64,000 nucleotides of DNA from Escherichia coli (GTDB lineage Bacteria; Pseudomonadota; Gammaproteobacteria; Enterobacterales; Enterobacteriaceae): NCBI RefSeq assembly GCF_003334335.1, contig NZ_QOWQ01000030.1. One strand, given 5' to 3'. Position numbers: made by a program. Below, in pieces: positions 44,801 through 50,800 of this stretch; the stretch's first letter is position 1; every line of letters begins with the position of its first letter.

Positions 44801-47800
44801 CGGATGATTACCCAGACATTGCATGAACTTCGCCGTCGCGGCGGTGGATTTGGTTTAGTTACCGCCTGTGCTGCCGGTGGGCTTGGCGCGGCAATGGTTC
44901 TGGAGGCGGAATAATGGAAATGACATCAGCGTTTACCCTTAATGTTCGTCTGGACAACATTGCCGTTATCACCATCGACGTACCGGGTGAGAAAATGAAT
45001 ACCCTGAAGGCGGAGTTTGCCTCGCAGGTGCGCGCCATTATTAAGCAACTCCGTGAAAACAAAGAGTTGCGAGGCGTGGTGTTTGTCTCCGCTAAACCGG
45101 ACAACTTCATTGCTGGCGCAGACATCAACATGATCGGCAACTGCAAAACGGCGCAAGAAGCGGAAGCTCTGGCGCGGCAGGGCCAACAGTTGATGGCGGA
45201 GATTCATGCTTTGCCCATTCAGGTTATCGCGGCTATTCATGGCGCTTGCCTGGGTGGTGGGCTGGAGTTGGCGCTGGCGTGCCACGGTCGCGTTTGTACT
45301 GACGATCCTAAAACGGTGCTCGGTTTGCCTGAAGTACAACTTGGATTGTTACCCGGTTCAGGCGGCACCCAGCGTTTACCGCGTCTGATAGGCGTCAGCA
45401 CAGCATTAGAGATGATCCTCACCGGAAAACAACTTCGGGCGAAACAGGCATTAAAGCTGGGGCTGGTGGATGACGTTGTTCCGCACTCCATTCTGCTGGA
45501 AGCCGCTGTTGAGCTGGCAAAGAAGGAGCGCCCATCTTCCCGCCCTCTACCTGTACGCGAGCGTATTCTGGCGGGGCCGTTAGGTCGTGCGCTGCTGTTC
45601 AAAATGGTCGGCAAGAAAACAGAACACAAAACTCAAGGCAATTATCCGGCGACAGAACGCATCCTGGAGGTTGTTGAAACGGGATTAGCGCAGGGCACCA
45701 GCAGCGGTTATGACGCCGAAGCTCGGGCGTTTGGCGAACTGGCGATGACGCCACAATCGCAGGCGCTGCGTAGTATCTTTTTTGCCAGTACGGACGTGAA
45801 GAAAGATCCCGGCAGTGATGCGCCGCCTGCGCCATTAAACAGCGTGGGGATTTTAGGTGGTGGCTTGATGGGCGGCGGTATTGCTTATGTCACTGCTTGT
45901 AAAGCGGGGATTCCGGTCAGAATTAAAGATATCAACCCGCAGGGCATAAATCATGCGCTGAAGTACAGTTGGGATCAGCTGGAGGGCAAAGTTCGCCGTC
46001 GTCATCTCAAAGCCAGCGAACGTGACAAACAGCTGGCATTAATCTCCGGAACGACGGACTATCGCGGCTTTGCCCATCGCGATCTGATTATTGAAGCGGT
46101 GTTTGAAAATCTCGAATTGAAACAACAGATGGTGGCGGAAGTTGAGCAAAATTGCGCCGCTCATACCATCTTTGCTTCGAATACGTCATCTTTACCGATT
46201 GGTGATATCGCCGCTCACGCCACGCGACCTGAGCAAGTTATCGGCCTGCATTTCTTCAGTCCGGTGGAAAAAATGCCGCTGGTGGAGATTATTCCTCATG
46301 CGGGGACATCGGCGCAAACCATCGCTACCACAGTAAAACTGGCGAAAAAACAGGGTAAAACGCCAATTGTCGTGCGTGACAAAGCCGGTTTTTACGTCAA
46401 TCGCATCTTAGCGCCTTACATTAATGAAGCTATCCGCATGTTGACCCAAGGTGAACGGGTAGAGCACATTGATGCCGCGCTAGTGAAATTTGGTTTTCCG
46501 GTAGGCCCAATCCAACTTTTGGATGAGGTAGGAATCGACACCGGGACTAAAATTATTCCTGTACTGGAAGCCGCTTATGGAGAACGTTTTAGCGCGCCTG
46601 CAAATGTTGTTTCTTCAATTTTGAACGACGATCGCAAAGGCAGAAAAAATGGCCGGGGTTTCTATCTTTATGGTCAGAAAGGGCGTAAAAGCAAAAAACA
46701 GGTCGATCCCGCCATTTACCCGCTGATTGGCACACAAGGGCAGGGGCGAATCTCCGCACCGCAGGTTGCTGAACGGTGTGTGATGTTGATGCTGAATGAA
46801 GCAGTACGTTGTGTTGATGAGCAGGTTATCCGTAGCGTGCGTGACGGGGATATTGGCGCGGTATTTGGCATTGGTTTTCCGCCATTTCTCGGTGGACCGT
46901 TCCGCTATATCGATTCTCTCGGCGCGGGCGAAGTGGTTGCAATAATGCAACGACTTGCCACGCAGTATGGTTCCCGTTTTACCCCTTGCGAGCGTTTGGT
47001 CGAGATGGGCGCGCGTGGGGAAAGTTTTTGGAAAACAACTGCAACTGACCTGCAATAAGAAGGTCAAAGCTATATGAATCCGCGCTGAATGGCGGAGTGT
47101 TGGTCAAAATGTAAACGCATATTGACTATACTTACGCCATTGAGGTAAAAAACAGCGTTTCATTCGGTGAATGGATAAGGCACAATGCCGGCCACCGTTT
47201 TCTTTCTCTGGTTTCAGATGAAAGAAAACGGGCGAATCTGGTTAACAAAAGCGGTGCAATATGCAAGTTTTTATCATGCGTCACGGCGACGCAGCCCTCG
47301 ATGCCGCCAGTGATTCCGTTCGTCCTCTGACCACTAATGGTTGTGACGAATCTCGCCTGATGGCGAACTGGCTGAAAGGTCAAAAAGTGGAAATCGAACG
47401 CGTTCTGGTGAGCCCGTTCCTGCGAGCCGAGCAAACACTGGAAGAAGTAGGGGATTGTCTGAACCTGCCTTCCAGTGCAGAAGTTCTGCCGGAGTTAACG
47501 CCCTGCGGCGATGTTGGTCTGGTCAGTGCCTATTTGCAGGCGTTGACCAATGAAGGTGTTGCTTCGGTACTGGTGATCTCTCACTTACCGTTAGTCGGGT
47601 ATCTGGTTGCCGAGTTATGTCCGGGCGAAACGCCGCCTATGTTTACCACCTCGGCCATTGCCAGCGTAACGCTTGATGAAAGCGGAAACGGCACATTCAA
47701 CTGGCAGATGAGCCCGTGTAATCTGAAGATGGCAAAAGCTATCTGATGAGTTCCAAATTATGCCCAATGAGGTAGATTCATTGGGCATAATTGCTCATCA

Positions 47801-50800
47801 GGCAGCGGATATCTGTCAACCTCACTACTATCGAAGACTCTCCCCATCTATAAATAAAACACCTTTAACTTTCATTCGGAAAGTATTCTTCTGCGCGTAT
47901 CTTGATTTTGCCCAAAGTTACATGTTGAAATGAATAATGTCTGTTTGACACTCATTATCATTTATTAATACAGATAATGGAGAAAATAGAGTTGAATAAT
48001 CAGGCAGGACGTAATTGAAACTTGATTAAATTCTGGCTATAGTGTTTATATATTATATCGACAAAAGCGGGTTAATGCCAATCGCATTATATGTTCATTG
48101 TTTGTTTTTTAAGCTATTGGCATTCATTGTTGATATGCTTCCTGTTTTTTCTAAATATATATTTCGTGTTTTTTTAGAAGATCCTTAAGATAATCTTTCC
48201 CCTATCAATATATTAATTAAATCTACATTTACTCATTAGTAAAATTAAATTGAATCAGGGGAGTGAAAACATCACTATTCGACCCCACACCAACGAATAC
48301 ATTTTTTACGACCTGTTTTTTTGGATCGCATGCCGTATTCAATGGCTGGGTATAAACATTGGCTATTGACTGAATCAATGTATTGCAATGTTTATATTTT
48401 AATTATTTATAGTTTAAGGACAAATAATGAGTAAGTTTGTTAAAACAGCTATTGCTGCGGCAATGGTGATGGGCGCGTTCACCTCTACGGCAACAATCGC
48501 TGCGGGTAACAACGGTACTGCACGTTTTTACGGCACCATTGAAGACTCAGTGTGTTCTATCGTTCCGGACGATCACAAACTGGAAGTTGATATGGGTGAT
48601 ATCGGTGCCGAAAAACTGAAAAATAACGGCACCACCACGCCGAAAAATTTCCAGATTCGCCTGCAAGATTGCGTATTTGATACTCAGGAAACAATGACCA
48701 CTACCTTTACTGGTACCGTTTCTTCTGCAAATAGCGGCAATTATTACACCATTTTCAATACCGATACCGGTGCGGCATTTAACAATGTTAGCCTGGCGAT
48801 CGGTGACTCTCTGGGTACCTCTTACAAAAGCGGCATGGGTATTGACCAGAAAATCGTGAAAGATACTGCCACTAATAAAGGCAAAGCGAAGCAGACTCTG
48901 AACTTTAAAGCCTGGCTGGTCGGCGCAGCTGATGCGCCAGATCTGGGTAATTTCGAAGCAAATACCACCTTCCAGATTACTTACCTGTAAGGCATACCCC
49001 CATAGCGACACTGCTATGGGGTATTTAAATGGATTTTGACCGAACAAGAATAAAAACGGATAAAAACGTGTATGCCTGACCATTCTCTTTTTCGATTACG
49101 GATTCTTCCGTGGTGCATTGCGCTGGCAATGTCAGGGAGTTATAGCAGTGTCTGGGCTGAAGACGACATTCAGTTTGATTCCCGTTTTCTGGAATTAAAA
49201 GGCGACACAAAAATTGATCTGAAGCGTTTTTCCAGCCAGGGGTATGTTGAGCCCGGAAAATACAATTTACAGGTTCAACTAAATAAACAGCCATTGGCGG
49301 AAGAGTACGATATTTACTGGTATGCTGGTGAAGATGACGTTAGCAAAAGCTATGCTTGTCTGACACCGGAACTGGTGGCGCAGTTTGGTTTAAAAGAAGA
49401 CGTGGCGAAAAATCTGCAATGGAGCCACGATGGTAAATGCCTGAAGCCCGGTCAACTGGAAGGCGTGGAAATTAAGGCTGATTTAAGCCAGTCCGCATTA
49501 GTCATTTCACTACCGCAGGCTTACCTCGAATATACCTGGCCCGACTGGGATCCACCTTCTCGTTGGGATGATGGCATCTCCGGGATCATTGCGGACTACA
49601 GCATCACTGCGCAAACACGACACGAAGAAAATGGCGGCGATGACAGTAACGAGATCAGCGGCAACGGGACGGTCGGGGTTAACCTGGGGCCATGGCGTAT
49701 GCGCGCTGACTGGCAGACCAACTATCAACATACGCGCAGTAATGATGATGACGATGAATTTGGCGGCGATGACACACAAAAAAAATGGGAGTGGAGTCGC
49801 TATTATGCCTGGCGGGCGTTACCGTCATTAAAAGCCAAACTGGCGCTGGGCGAAGATTACCTCAATTCCGATATTTTCGACGGTTTTAATTATGTTGGTG
49901 GCAGTGTCAGCACTGACGATCAAATGTTGCCTCCCAATCTGCGCGGCTACGCGCCAGACATTTCCGGCGTGGCACACACCACAGCAAAAGTGACCGTCAG
50001 CCAGATGGGGCGTGTGATTTACGAAACGCAGGTTCCGGCTGGACCGTTTCGTATTCAGGATCTTGGTGATTCCGTCTCCGGTACGTTGCATATTCGCATT
50101 GAAGAACAGAACGGCCAGGTGCAGGAATATGACATCAGCACCGCCTCGATGCCATACCTCACTCGCCTAGGCCAGGTTCGCTATAAGATCATGATGGGAC
50201 GTCCGCAAGAGTGGGGCCACCATGTCGAGGGGGGATTTTTCTCTGGTGCTGAAGCCTCCTGGGGCATCGCTAACGGCTGGTCGTTATATGGCGGTGCGCT
50301 GGGTGATGAAAACTATCAGTCTGCGGCGCTGGGCGTCGGTCGCGATTTGTCTACCTTCGGCGCGGTCGCGTTTGATGTTACTCATTCGCATACCAAACTG
50401 GATAAAGACACCGCTTATGGCAAAGGTTCGCTGGACGGTAACTCCTTCCGTGTGAGTTATTCCAAAGACTTTGACCAGCTCAACAGCCGCGTCACTTTCG
50501 CTGGATATCGCTTCTCGGAAGAGAACTTTATGACCATGAGCGAGTATCTGGATGCCAGTGACAGCGAAATGGTCCGTACGGGCAACGACAAAGAGATGTA
50601 CACCGCCACTTATAACCAGAACTTCCGCGATGCGGGTGTTTCGGTTTATCTCAACTATACCCGCCATACCTACTGGGATCGTGAGGAGCAGACAAACTAC
50701 AACATCATGCTCTCCCACTATTTCAATATGGGCAGCATTCGTAATATGAGCGTTTCCCTGACTGGCTACCGCTACGAGTATGACAACCGGGCGGATAAGG

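What the first reader, a model, noticed from the sequence alone, without database searches (positions are those of the whole stretch)
47747..48426. 680-bp gene-free, very AT-rich control region upstream of the yfcV fimbrial operon
This is the longest non-coding stretch in the window and is markedly AT-rich, with runs such as tatatattatatcg and ttttttctaaatatatatttcg. It is a classic substrate for H-NS silencing and possibly a cryptic or conditional promoter. I did not see the large flanking inverted repeats that a fimS-type invertible switch would need, so inversion is unlikely.
Basis: inference. Interest (0 to 1): 0.3.

Follow-up and report, generated by a model that had tools for sequence, protein, structure and literature searches.

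The report
H-NS-silenced control region of yfc fimbriae
The 680-bp AT-rich gap between sixA and yfcV is the already-described, H-NS-bound "promoter island" that keeps E. coli's cryptic Yfc fimbrial operon switched off; it is real, but ordinary and already known.

Summary
Window 47747-48426 is a 680-bp gap between sixA and yfcV. At 31.9% GC it is the longest and most AT-rich of the 46 intergenic regions in the window, and it has no conserved ORF and no Rfam match.

The sequence is identical to E. coli K-12 MG1655, where the spacer is already described. It is one of the 78 published "promoter islands", mapping to window 47936-48424. It is bound by H-NS in two K-12 datasets and by RpoD and RpoS holoenzymes in vitro. 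The promoter published for yfcV, TTGAAA-17-TATAGT, lies at 48015-48043.

It is not an invertible switch:
- The only perfect inverted repeat of 9 bp or more with a 100-400 bp spacer is no longer than chance gives.
- Neither tested inverted configuration occurs in any of 5426 complete genomes.
- There is no Pap-type GATC pair.

New but incremental findings:
- At least six deeply diverged alleles of the spacer exist in Escherichia (43-69% identity), while sixA stays 95-100% identical.
- All alleles keep the length (558-683 bp) and AT-richness (26-32% GC).
- A few sequence islands survive in all of them: the sixA terminator hairpin, a core at 48019-48081 holding a minus-strand promoter-like site, two short motifs, and the ribosome-binding region.

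The feature is already known and of low interest.

The parts
47738..47806 (+). sixA 3' stem-loop or terminator. The core arms are 47756-47770 and 47778-47792. In this allele an outer stem also pairs the sixA stop-codon region.
   Evidence: 15-bp perfect inverted repeat. RNA fold is -40.6 kcal/mol, z = -7.45, and 0 of 200 shuffles fold as well. The hairpin is kept in six allele classes, with compensatory changes at 4 of 11 pairs. Other alleles carry T-runs after the stem on one or both strands.
47747..48426 (.). The full sixA-yfcV intergenic region: 680 bp, 31.9% GC.
47936..48424 (.). Published 'promoter island' 2453647_489 (yfcV/sixA) of K-12, H-NS-bound.
   Evidence: PMC3661553 Table 1. I derived the mapping U00096.2 coordinate u = window 2502071 - u. 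I checked it against two other islands, yfdF/mlaA and yfdI, whose gene labels fit only this offset. My own scan found 4 sigma-70-like sites in the spacer against a window mean of 0.82 per 680 bp, and TANNNT at 66 per kb against 24 per kb.
48015..48043 (+). Sigma-70-like promoter TTGAAA-17-TATAGT, pointing at yfcV. This is the promoter published for yfcV. It would give a leader of about 377 nt.
   Evidence: scan. The same sequence is listed for yfcV by Shimada 2014. At these alignment columns the scan finds it only in the window allele. The sequence is identical in the two alleles about 6% diverged. AR0015 reads TTGGGT-17-TATAGT by eye, below the scan threshold.
48052..48081 (-). Sigma-70-like promoter TTGGCA-18-TATAAT on the opposite strand, pointing toward sixA. 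It is the only promoter-like element at the same alignment position in 5 of 6 allele classes.
   Evidence: One search gives 11 of 12 matches. One search finds TTGnnA-16/17/18-TATAAT at alignment columns 368-339 in the window, O145, E. whittamii, AR0015 and E69 alleles, with a shifted weaker site in KE26.
48019..48058 (.). Conserved distal core block (TCTTGAT ... TTAATATTATATC). It holds the minus-strand TATAAT and overlapping promoter-like sites on both strands.
   Evidence: Alignments A1 and A3. It is 100% identical between the A-type and B1-type alleles.
48059..48320 (+). Hypervariable middle, or leader. It is about 13% diverged even between otherwise near-identical alleles and is barely alignable between classes. 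It contains a stretch with C in excess of G at 48146-48300.
   Evidence: IS1 target sites at 48056-70, 48089-97, 48187-95 and 48198-206.
48286..48299 (+). Conserved motif CACACCAACGAATA (consensus CACACCAAAGAATA). Function unknown.
48335..48348 (+). Conserved motif (G)TATTCAATGGCTG. Function unknown.
48392..48426 (+). Conserved proximal block. It contains TATATT (48393-48398, a possible proximal -10), the ribosome-binding site AAGGA (48416-48420), and 6 nt of spacing to the ATG.
   Evidence: 72% of columns are invariant across four classes. From 48413 on the sequence is invariant in six classes.
48427..54845 (+). The yfcV-yfcU-yfcS-yfcR-yfcQ-yfcP-yfcO chaperone-usher operon that this region controls. 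All seven genes are intact in this window.

Best explanation
The region is the regulatory spacer of the cryptic Yfc chaperone-usher fimbrial operon.

Anatomy:
- The left 60 bp are the sixA terminator hairpin.
- The rest is a local AT-rich island (26-32% GC in every allele). The operon's coding DNA is not AT-rich (46-52% GC).
- It carries a cluster of overlapping sigma-70-type promoter-like sites on both strands around 48015-48081.
- A long, variable leader follows.
- A conserved ribosome-binding region lies just before yfcV.

Proposed mechanism:
- RNA polymerase can bind the spacer without helper proteins (shown in vitro in K-12).
- In vivo H-NS occupies the AT-rich DNA (shown in K-12). I infer that H-NS spreads over the promoter core and keeps the operon off.
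- Expression then needs something that counteracts H-NS. BolA or TosR overproduction raises yfcV mRNA. LeuO is a lead I recall from memory only.
- Release of Rho-dependent termination in the untranslated leader may also contribute, because bicyclomycin raises yfcV.

What the alleles preserve is length, base composition and a few short islands, not the bulk sequence.
For: Shown here:
- Exact coordinates, length and AT-richness rank.
- Identity to K-12 MG1655 over 47700-48500.
- Promoter-like sites at 48015-48043 (+) and 48081-48052 (-).
- Promoter-like site density about five times the window mean.
- yfc genes have GC 46-52% and GC3 44-61%, so the AT island is local.
- Six allele classes all keep 558-683 bp and 26-32% GC, although pairwise identity is only 43-69% (shuffle null 34%) and sixA stays 95-100% identical.
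- Conserved islands.
- A control AT-rich spacer, yfdX/frc, is conserved in 5399 of 5426 genomes, so the hypervariability is specific to this locus.

From the literature on the identical K-12 sequence:
- Promoter island 2453647_489, H-NS-bound in Kahramanoglou and Oshima (PMC3661553).
- RpoD holoenzyme SELEX peak, promoter TTGAAA-17-TATAGT and an 'HNS' mark (PMC3946193).
- RpoS holoenzyme peak in the same spacer (PMC5493296).
- Cryptic CU fimbriae of commensal E. coli repressed by H-NS, and yfc functional but cryptic (PMC3559732 citing Korea 2010).
- yfcV up after BolA overproduction (PMC4337573), after TosR overproduction in CFT073 (PMC5956150), and after bicyclomycin (PMC10980228).
Against: - I have no direct data for the strain in the window. 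The argument rests on sequence identity to K-12.
- The promoter-island table gives this spacer code 'K' (two H-NS datasets), not 'A' (all studies).
- I could not read Korea 2010 itself. Derepression of yfc specifically in an hns mutant is therefore taken from a secondary summary.
- No experimentally mapped transcription start was found in the held literature.
- The H-NS high-affinity motif TCGATAAATT has no match with one mismatch or fewer in the spacer.
- A-tracts are neither enriched nor helically phased relative to shuffles. Only base composition argues for H-NS binding from the sequence itself.
- Within the region, promoter-like site counts equal those of composition-matched shuffles: 4 observed against 4.3.
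Confidence: 0.85

Rival explanations
1. A fimS-type invertible promoter element. A site-specific recombinase would flip a segment bounded by short inverted repeats to switch yfc on and off.
For: Short perfect inverted repeats exist: 10 bp at 48229-48238 / 48425-48434, 10 bp at 47848-47857 / 48403-48412, and 9 bp at 47950-47958 / 48424-48432.
Against: - The only perfect repeat of 9 bp or more with a 100-400 bp spacer is the 10-bp pair at 48229/48425. 31% of dinucleotide shuffles reach that length, and the count of 9-mer pairs (2) matches the shuffle mean of 1.8.
- Its right arm covers the yfcV start codon. Its left arm is not conserved in other alleles.
- Synthetic queries carrying the inverted configuration of the 48229/48425 pair and the 47848/48403 pair found 0 of 5426 complete genomes with it.
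- No recombinase gene flanks the locus; the neighbours are fadJ, sixA and the yfc genes.
Confidence: 0.01
2. A Pap-type epigenetic phase switch. Lrp and Dam would compete at two GATC sites, assisted by PapI and PapB homologues.
For: There are two GATC sites in the spacer, at 48180 and 48324. From my memory of the Lrp SELEX consensus, the conserved AATATTATA resembles its central core. That is a lead only.
Against: - Two GATC sites is what this base composition predicts (my estimate is about 2).
- They are 144 bp apart, not about 102 bp.
- Neither is conserved in the other allele classes.
- There is no papI- or papB-like ORF in the spacer, and none is annotated in any allele.
Confidence: 0.03
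3. The spacer hides an unannotated gene. This would be either a small protein, or a roughly 250-290-nt non-coding RNA made from the conserved minus-strand promoter (start near 48045) and ending at the sixA hairpin.
For: The minus-strand TTGnnA-16/18-TATAAT site is the only positionally conserved promoter-like element, present in 5 of 6 classes. In several alleles the hairpin has T-runs on the minus strand and could terminate such a transcript. The stretch 47807-48045 is better conserved between A-type and B1-type alleles (about 3% diverged) than 48059-48320 (about 13%).
Against: - No Rfam hit.
- The putative RNA folds no better than shuffles, z = -0.47.
- Its sequence is essentially unalignable between classes.
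- The ORFs have no family match, are broken in close alleles or absent from the other classes, and those that survive in close alleles show no sign of purifying selection.
- Bidirectional promoter-like sites are expected in AT-rich DNA from -10 symmetry (general knowledge, Warman et al. 2021, not read here).
Confidence: 0.08
4. The spacer is mostly neutral filler. Only a core promoter and the ribosome-binding region are functional. The length and AT-richness would reflect mutation bias and weak selection in a fast-turning-over fimbrial locus, with H-NS binding as a by-product.
For: Bulk sequence is barely conserved: 25% of columns are invariant across four classes. There is no A-tract phasing and no H-NS motif. 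IS1 insertions at seven or more sites are tolerated.
Against: Six alleles that have diverged almost to saturation all keep 558-683 bp and 26-32% GC. That GC is well below the 40% of the window's other intergenic DNA and below the GC3 of the adjacent genes. Without constraint, indels would be expected to spread the lengths more widely. This argument is inferential.
Confidence: 0.12

Closest known systems
'Promoter islands' of E. coli K-12 (Panyukov & Ozoline 2013, PMC3661553)
   Same: This spacer is itself entry 2453647_489 (yfcV/sixA) in their list of 78. It is AT-rich, dense in potential start sites, binds RNA polymerase, is H-NS-bound and gives little transcript. Other cryptic fimbrial spacers are in the same list: yadN/folK, folD/sfmA, ybgD/gltA, ssuE/elfA, yehD/yehE and agaI/yraH.
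   Different: Nothing differs; it is a listed member. My addition is the population view: six deep alleles, conserved islands, and a conserved promoter-like element that lies on the minus strand.
H-NS-silenced cryptic operons activated by IS insertion, such as bgl (from my own knowledge)
   Same: An AT-rich upstream silencer region. Natural IS1 insertions occur at seven or more different sites within 47947-48206 in sequenced isolates.
   Different: Activation of yfc by these insertions has not been tested. A control AT-rich spacer (yfdX/frc) also carries IS1 in 21 genomes. The insertions therefore look like a generic property of AT-rich intergenic DNA rather than a feature of yfc.
fimS invertible switch of type 1 fimbriae
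   Same: A regulatory spacer several hundred bp long, upstream of the major-subunit gene of a chaperone-usher operon, and H-NS-bound.
   Different: No significant inverted repeats, no adjacent recombinase, and no inverted configuration in 5426 genomes.
pap regulatory region (papI-papB intergenic region; Lrp/Dam phase variation)
   Same: A long AT-rich fimbrial control region repressed by H-NS. A PapB-family protein, TosR, raises yfcV mRNA when overproduced in CFT073.
   Different: No local PapI or PapB genes and no conserved GATC pair.

Membership tests
H-NS-silenced AT-rich regulatory region / promoter island | An extended stretch (300 bp or more) much more AT-rich than the genome | tested here: met
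   680 bp at 31.9% GC against 48.8% for the window. It contains the lowest-GC 680-bp stretch of the 64 kb.
H-NS-silenced AT-rich regulatory region / promoter island | Unusually high density of promoter-like sites or potential start points | tested here: met
   4 sigma-70-like sites against a mean of 0.82 per 680 bp in the window, at or above the 95th percentile. TANNNT is 66 per kb against 24 per kb. The density equals that of composition-matched shuffles, so it is driven by base composition. The spacer is listed as PI 2453647_489 by PlatProm.
H-NS-silenced AT-rich regulatory region / promoter island | H-NS occupancy in vivo or in vitro | not testable with these tools
   Literature on the identical K-12 sequence: code 'K' (Kahramanoglou ChIP-seq plus Oshima ChIP-chip) in PMC3661553, and an 'HNS' genomic-SELEX mark in PMC3946193. 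No supplementary files of the Kahramanoglou paper are held.
H-NS-silenced AT-rich regulatory region / promoter island | RNA polymerase binds, but little transcript is made in wild-type cells, with derepression when silencing is relieved | not testable with these tools
   Literature: RpoD and RpoS holoenzyme SELEX peaks; yfc described as 'functional but cryptic' and H-NS-repressed as a class; induction by BolA, TosR and bicyclomycin. I did not see a yfc-specific delta-hns measurement.
H-NS-silenced AT-rich regulatory region / promoter island | High-affinity H-NS nucleation motif, or intrinsic curvature from phased A-tracts | tested here: not met
   No TCGATAAATT match with one mismatch or fewer in the spacer. 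There are 12 A/T tracts against 12.1 in shuffles, and no 10-11.5 bp periodicity (47% of shuffles reach the observed power). This feature is common in such regions but not obligatory.
fimS-type invertible element | Inverted repeats of 9 bp or more flanking 100-400 bp, beyond chance | tested here: not met
   One 10-bp pair exists. 31% of shuffles reach 10 bp or more.
fimS-type invertible element | Both orientations present among genomes | tested here: not met
   0 of 5426 genomes carry either tested inverted configuration.
fimS-type invertible element | Adjacent tyrosine-recombinase gene | tested here: not met
   The neighbours are fadI, fadJ, sixA and yfcV-yfcO, smrB. A trans-acting recombinase encoded elsewhere cannot be excluded from the window alone.
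Pap-type Dam/Lrp methylation switch | Two conserved GATC sites about 102 bp apart within Lrp sites | tested here: not met
   GATC occurs at 48180 and 48324, 144 bp apart, and neither is conserved in the other alleles.
Pap-type Dam/Lrp methylation switch | Local papI and papB homologues | tested here: not met
   No ORF with a family match and no annotated gene in the spacer of any allele.

The most novel reading that the evidence does not exclude
The element that selection has kept fixed through near-complete sequence turnover is not the yfcV-directed promoter assigned in the literature. It is a minus-strand sigma-70 promoter, TTGnnA-17(+/-1)-TATAAT at 48081-48052, that points away from yfcV toward the sixA terminator.

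If this promoter is active, divergent transcription or RNA polymerase occupancy there could be the conserved regulatory device of the Yfc locus. Possible modes are an unstructured non-coding transcript, supercoiling coupling, or a competitor or nucleation point for H-NS. The bulk of the spacer would then be kept only for length and AT content, as a composition-coded silencer.
Probability: 0.2. Interest if true: 0.4.

Novelty: already known. Interest (0 to 1): 0.15.

Why it matters
This adds little. The spacer is a textbook case of xenogeneic-style silencing of a cryptic adhesin operon, and it is already catalogued for K-12.

Its modest value is as a natural experiment. One chromosomal position, bounded sharply by the sixA terminator, carries at least six alleles. 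They have diverged almost to saturation, yet all keep about 560-680 bp at 26-32% GC plus four short islands.

That makes it a convenient locus for two questions:
- Does H-NS silencing need only base composition and length, or also specific sequence?
- Which short conserved motifs control Yfc fimbriae? yfcV is widely used as a marker gene for uropathogenic E. coli.

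Tried and rejected
- Rfam scan of 46500-49500 at E<=1: nothing.
- ORFs of 28-57 aa in the spacer: seven tested have no NCBIfam match, and none shows coding constraint. This includes a 28-aa hydrophobic ORF at 48091-48177 that might have suggested a type I toxin; it has a stop codon in alleles 6% diverged.
- Invertible switch: rejected by the shuffle test and by two synthetic-inversion searches.
- Pap-like GATC switch: rejected.
- H-NS motif TCGATAAATT: no hit with one mismatch or fewer in the spacer.
- A-tract enrichment and phasing: none.
- Structure of the putative minus-strand RNA: none, z = -0.47. The plus-strand leader is moderately more stable than shuffles, z = -2.74, but its main hairpin (48351-48396) is not kept by compensatory changes in other alleles, so I make no claim about it.
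- IS1 'hot spot': I first read the seven or more distinct IS1 sites as special. A control AT-rich spacer (yfdX/frc) also carries IS1 in 21 genomes, so I downgraded this to a generic property.
- Literature dead ends:
  - Korea 2010 and Thomason 2015 are not held.
  - No supplements are held for Kahramanoglou 2011.
  - No paper with a mapped yfcV transcription start was found.
- CsiR ChIP-seq peak at K-12 coordinate 2454000, about window 48071, with 1.9-fold induction: noted, but too weak to build on.
- Resemblances of CCAAAGAATA to an RcsAB half-box, of AATCAATGTATTG (48374-48386) to the IHF core, and of AATATTATA to the Lrp core come from my memory of those consensus sequences. I did not test them.

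Full report
**What the window is.** The window is an E. coli chromosome segment running from nupC to fabB, in the reverse of the K-12 orientation.
- From yfdC (37840) onward it is collinear with K-12. There are 3 mismatches in 13 kb around the finding.
- The 801 bp at 47700-48500 are 100% identical to K-12 MG1655 (hit H77).
- The strain is not K-12. It lacks the CPS-53 prophage at the tRNA-Arg gene (37690-37764), and its usher gene yfcU is intact.
- fadI, fadJ and sixA (47261-47746) lie upstream on the plus strand. The seven-gene chaperone-usher operon yfcV-U-S-R-Q-P-O (48427-54845) lies downstream on the same strand.

**Check of the observation.** The gap 47747-48426 is exactly 680 bp.
- I built a gene map of the whole window from two annotated records and verified it; all 55 mapped protein-coding genes are intact.
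- On that map the gap is the longest of 46 intergenic regions. The next longest is 512 bp.
- It has the lowest GC (31.9%) among intergenic regions of 100 bp or more. All intergenic DNA together is 40.3% GC and the window is 48.8%.
- The lowest-GC 680-bp stretch of the 64 kb is 47774-48453.
- Nothing is annotated in the gap in any allele, and Rfam finds nothing at E<=1.
- Seven ORFs of 28-57 aa have no NCBIfam match. Most ORFs of 28 aa or more are interrupted even in alleles only 6% diverged. Those that survive carry no synonymous changes, or none at all, and none can be aligned in the other classes.

**Anatomy.**
- *Left edge.* 47738-47806 forms a very stable stem-loop: -40.6 kcal/mol, z = -7.45. 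It begins within the sixA stop-codon region. The core hairpin is kept in six allele classes, with compensatory changes at 4 of 11 pairs. In other alleles it is followed by T-runs. This is the sixA terminator, not yfc control DNA.
- *Core.* Around 48015-48081 there are two strong sigma-70-like sites that overlap back to back. One is TTGAAA-17-TATAGT on the plus strand (48015-48043). The other is TTGGCA-18-TATAAT on the minus strand (48081-48052).
- *Right edge.* The ribosome-binding site AAGGA (48416-48420) sits 6 nt before the ATG.
- *Promoter-like site density.* The spacer has 4 sites, against a window mean of 0.82 per 680 bp. -10-like TANNNT hexamers occur at 66 per kb against 24 per kb. Composition-matched shuffles give the same count, so the density follows from AT-richness.
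- *Local AT island.* The yfc coding genes are not AT-rich (GC 46-52%, GC3 44-61%), so the AT island is confined to the spacer.

**What is already published for this exact sequence.**
- Panyukov & Ozoline (PMC3661553) list 'promoter island' 2453647_489, yfcV/sixA, among 78 such regions of K-12. These regions bind RNA polymerase and form open complexes but yield almost no full-length transcript. Up to 90% of their length is covered by H-NS. This one is marked as H-NS-bound in the Kahramanoglou and Oshima datasets.
- I mapped U00096.2 coordinates to the window as 2502071 - u. I checked this with two other islands, whose gene labels fit only this offset. The island is then window 47936-48424.
- Shimada et al. 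2014 (PMC3946193) found an RpoD-holoenzyme genomic-SELEX peak in this spacer. They assigned the promoter TTGAAA-17-TATAGT to yfcV and marked the spacer as containing an H-NS site. This is the same site as my hit.
- Shimada et al. 2017 found an RpoS-holoenzyme peak in the same spacer.
- Wurpel et al. 2013 summarise Korea et al. 2010: the yad, yeh and yfc operons encode functional but cryptic fimbriae, and such operons in commensal strains are repressed by H-NS.
- yfcV mRNA rises after BolA overproduction, after TosR overproduction in CFT073, and after the Rho inhibitor bicyclomycin.
- A weak CsiR ChIP-seq peak maps near 48071.

It is also already in the literature.

**Inversion and phase-variation tests.**
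- The only perfect inverted repeat of 9 bp or more with a 100-400 bp spacer is a 10-bp pair at 48229-48238 / 48425-48434. 31% of dinucleotide-preserving shuffles reach that length.
- Its right arm covers the start codon, and its left arm is not conserved.
- I built queries carrying the inverted configuration for this pair and for the widest 10-bp pair (47848/48403). None of 5426 complete genomes carries either.
- No recombinase gene is nearby.
- The two GATC sites (48180, 48324) match chance expectation, are 144 bp apart, and are not conserved. There are no papI- or papB-like genes.

Both switch models are rejected.

**Population structure (new, incremental).** sixA matches in all 5426 genomes, but only about 3070 carry a spacer like the window's. 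Sampling other genomes and two other Escherichia species gave at least six allele classes.

| Class | Genomes with 80% or more of the spacer |
|---|---|
| window / EC25 | 3071 |
| KE26 (from a urine isolate) | 1206 |
| AR0015 | 634 |
| O145 | 429 |
| E69 | 1 |
| E. whittamii | found only in the GTDB genome-contig scan |

- The five E. coli classes together cover 5341 of 5426 genomes.
- Pairwise identity between classes is 43-69%. The same aligner gives 34% for shuffled sequences.
- The last 300 nt of sixA stay 95-100% identical, and the first 300 nt of yfcV are 68-81% identical.
- The divergence boundary lies at the sixA stop codon and hairpin.
- Every class is 558-683 bp long and 26-32% GC.
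- A control AT-rich spacer, yfdX/frc, is conserved in 5399 of 5426 genomes. The hypervariability therefore belongs to the yfc locus and not to AT-rich spacers in general.

**Conserved islands.** Across the classes only a few blocks survive:
- the terminator hairpin;
- 48019-48058 (TCTTGAT ... TTAATATTATATC);
- 48286-48299 (CACACCAAAGAATA);
- 48335-48348 (TTCAATGGCTG);
- 48392-48426 (TATATT plus the ribosome-binding region).

The same pattern appears between the A-type and B1-type alleles. Between those two, the core block and the last ~107 bp are identical, apart from a single 1-bp indel near 48398, while 48059-48320 is about 13% diverged.

I scanned each allele for sigma-70-like sites and projected the hits onto the alignment. 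The only element at the same columns in 5 of 6 classes is the minus-strand TTGnnA-16/17/18-TATAAT. At its own columns, the published plus-strand promoter passes the scan only in the window allele. It is sequence-identical in the alleles about 6% diverged, and AR0015 has a weaker variant by eye.

This is the one mildly surprising result. It could mean a functional divergent promoter. It could equally reflect a protein-binding site that happens to contain TATAAT. The putative minus-strand RNA has no structure signal (z = -0.47), no conserved sequence and no ORF, so I rate a hidden gene as unlikely.

**Mechanism I commit to.** RNA polymerase can bind the promoter core unaided (shown in vitro, K-12). 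H-NS occupies the AT-rich spacer (shown in K-12). I infer that H-NS spreads across the core and leader and silences the operon. Expression then requires an H-NS antagonist or a changed nucleoid state. Rho termination in the roughly 377-nt untranslated leader may add to the silencing; this is inferred from the bicyclomycin result and from a stretch at 48146-48300 where C exceeds G. My confidence in the overall model is 0.85.

Weak points:
- There is no mapped transcription start.
- I did not see a yfc-specific delta-hns measurement in a primary source.
- The spacer has no H-NS motif and no A-tract phasing.

**IS1 insertions.**
- Nine examined isolates carry IS1 at eight different sites. Six sites lie in the spacer, one of them hit in both orientations, and two lie in the 5' end of yfcV.
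- 15 genomes with otherwise identical sequence carry an IS1 within 47700-48500. One KE26-class genome does too.
- The control spacer also carries IS1 in 21 genomes.
- I read this as the general preference of IS1 for AT-rich DNA.
- Whether any insertion activates yfc is untested.

**Verdict.** The feature is real, it was correctly interpreted, and it is already known. Interest is low (0.15). The residual novelty is the allelic series and the conserved minus-strand promoter-like core.

Noticed in passing
window 49072-51717 (yfcU), position 50808: The usher gene yfcU is intact here (881 aa). The K-12-like record has TAG at codon 579 where the window has TAC, and RefSeq marks it as a pseudogene with an internal stop. 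All seven yfc genes are intact in this strain, unlike K-12.
   Followed up: yes
window 37595-37840 (tRNA-Arg at 37690-37764, minus strand): There is no CPS-53 prophage at argW. dsdC is followed directly by the tRNA-Arg gene and yfdC. K-12 carries intS-yfdG...torI at this position, and strain VG48B2 carries a different prophage.
   Followed up: partly
window 47947-48206 (spacer) and 48453-48605 (yfcV 5' end): Natural IS1 insertions occur at eight distinct target sites among nine isolates examined: 47947-55, 47971-80 (both orientations, in two strains), 48056-70, 48089-97, 48187-95, 48198-206, 48453-61 and 48596-605. Fifteen genomes with otherwise 100% identical sequence carry an IS1 within 47700-48500. 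The effect on yfc expression is unknown.
   Followed up: partly
window 20522-21033 (yfdX/frc spacer): This second-longest AT-rich spacer (512 bp, 35.9% GC; marked H-NS-bound for frc by Shimada 2014) carries an IS1 in 21 genomes with identical flanks, all with the same bit score, so possibly at one site. Unlike the yfcV spacer it is conserved at 95% or more in nearly all E. coli.
   Followed up: no
window 48059-48320: Between the window allele and the B1-type alleles (EC25, P393) there is a patch of about 13% divergence, mostly G:C to A:T transitions. It is flanked by sequence diverged by 3% or less on both sides, and sixA and yfcV themselves differ by at most 1.3%. No sampled allele class looks like a donor for it.
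   Followed up: partly
window 47976-47984: Strain P393-F10 lacks 9 bp (AATGGAGAA). The deletion overlaps the IS1 target site 47971-47980 used in two other strains. It could be a slippage event or an excision scar.
   Followed up: no
window 39822-41159 (mlaA/yfdF spacer and yfdF): This is a second AT-rich island. The 181-bp convergent spacer is 32.0% GC, and 40480-41159 inside yfdF is 32.2% GC, the second-lowest 680-bp stretch of the window. It also has the highest density of promoter-like sites (6 per 680 bp). The published promoter island 2461920_303 (yfdF/mlaA) maps to 39849-40151.
   Followed up: partly
L024 (JAIJJM010000567.1, 2180 bp): A contig labelled 'MAG: Collinsella sp.' carries E. 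coli sixA-yfcV DNA. Its spacer is identical to the AR0015 allele class. This is almost certainly a mis-binned contig.
   Followed up: partly
window 48229-48238 and 48425-48434: A 10-bp perfect inverted repeat, TTACTCATTA / TAATGAGTAA, has its right arm spanning the yfcV start codon. It is no longer than chance gives, it is not conserved, and no inverted form exists in 5426 genomes.
   Followed up: yes
window 48050-48440, plus strand: The putative 391-nt yfcV leader folds more stably than shuffles (z = -2.74, 0 of 100 shuffles fold as well). It includes an 11-bp perfect hairpin at 48351-48361 / 48386-48396, just upstream of the ribosome-binding site. That hairpin is not maintained by compensatory changes in other alleles.
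   Followed up: partly
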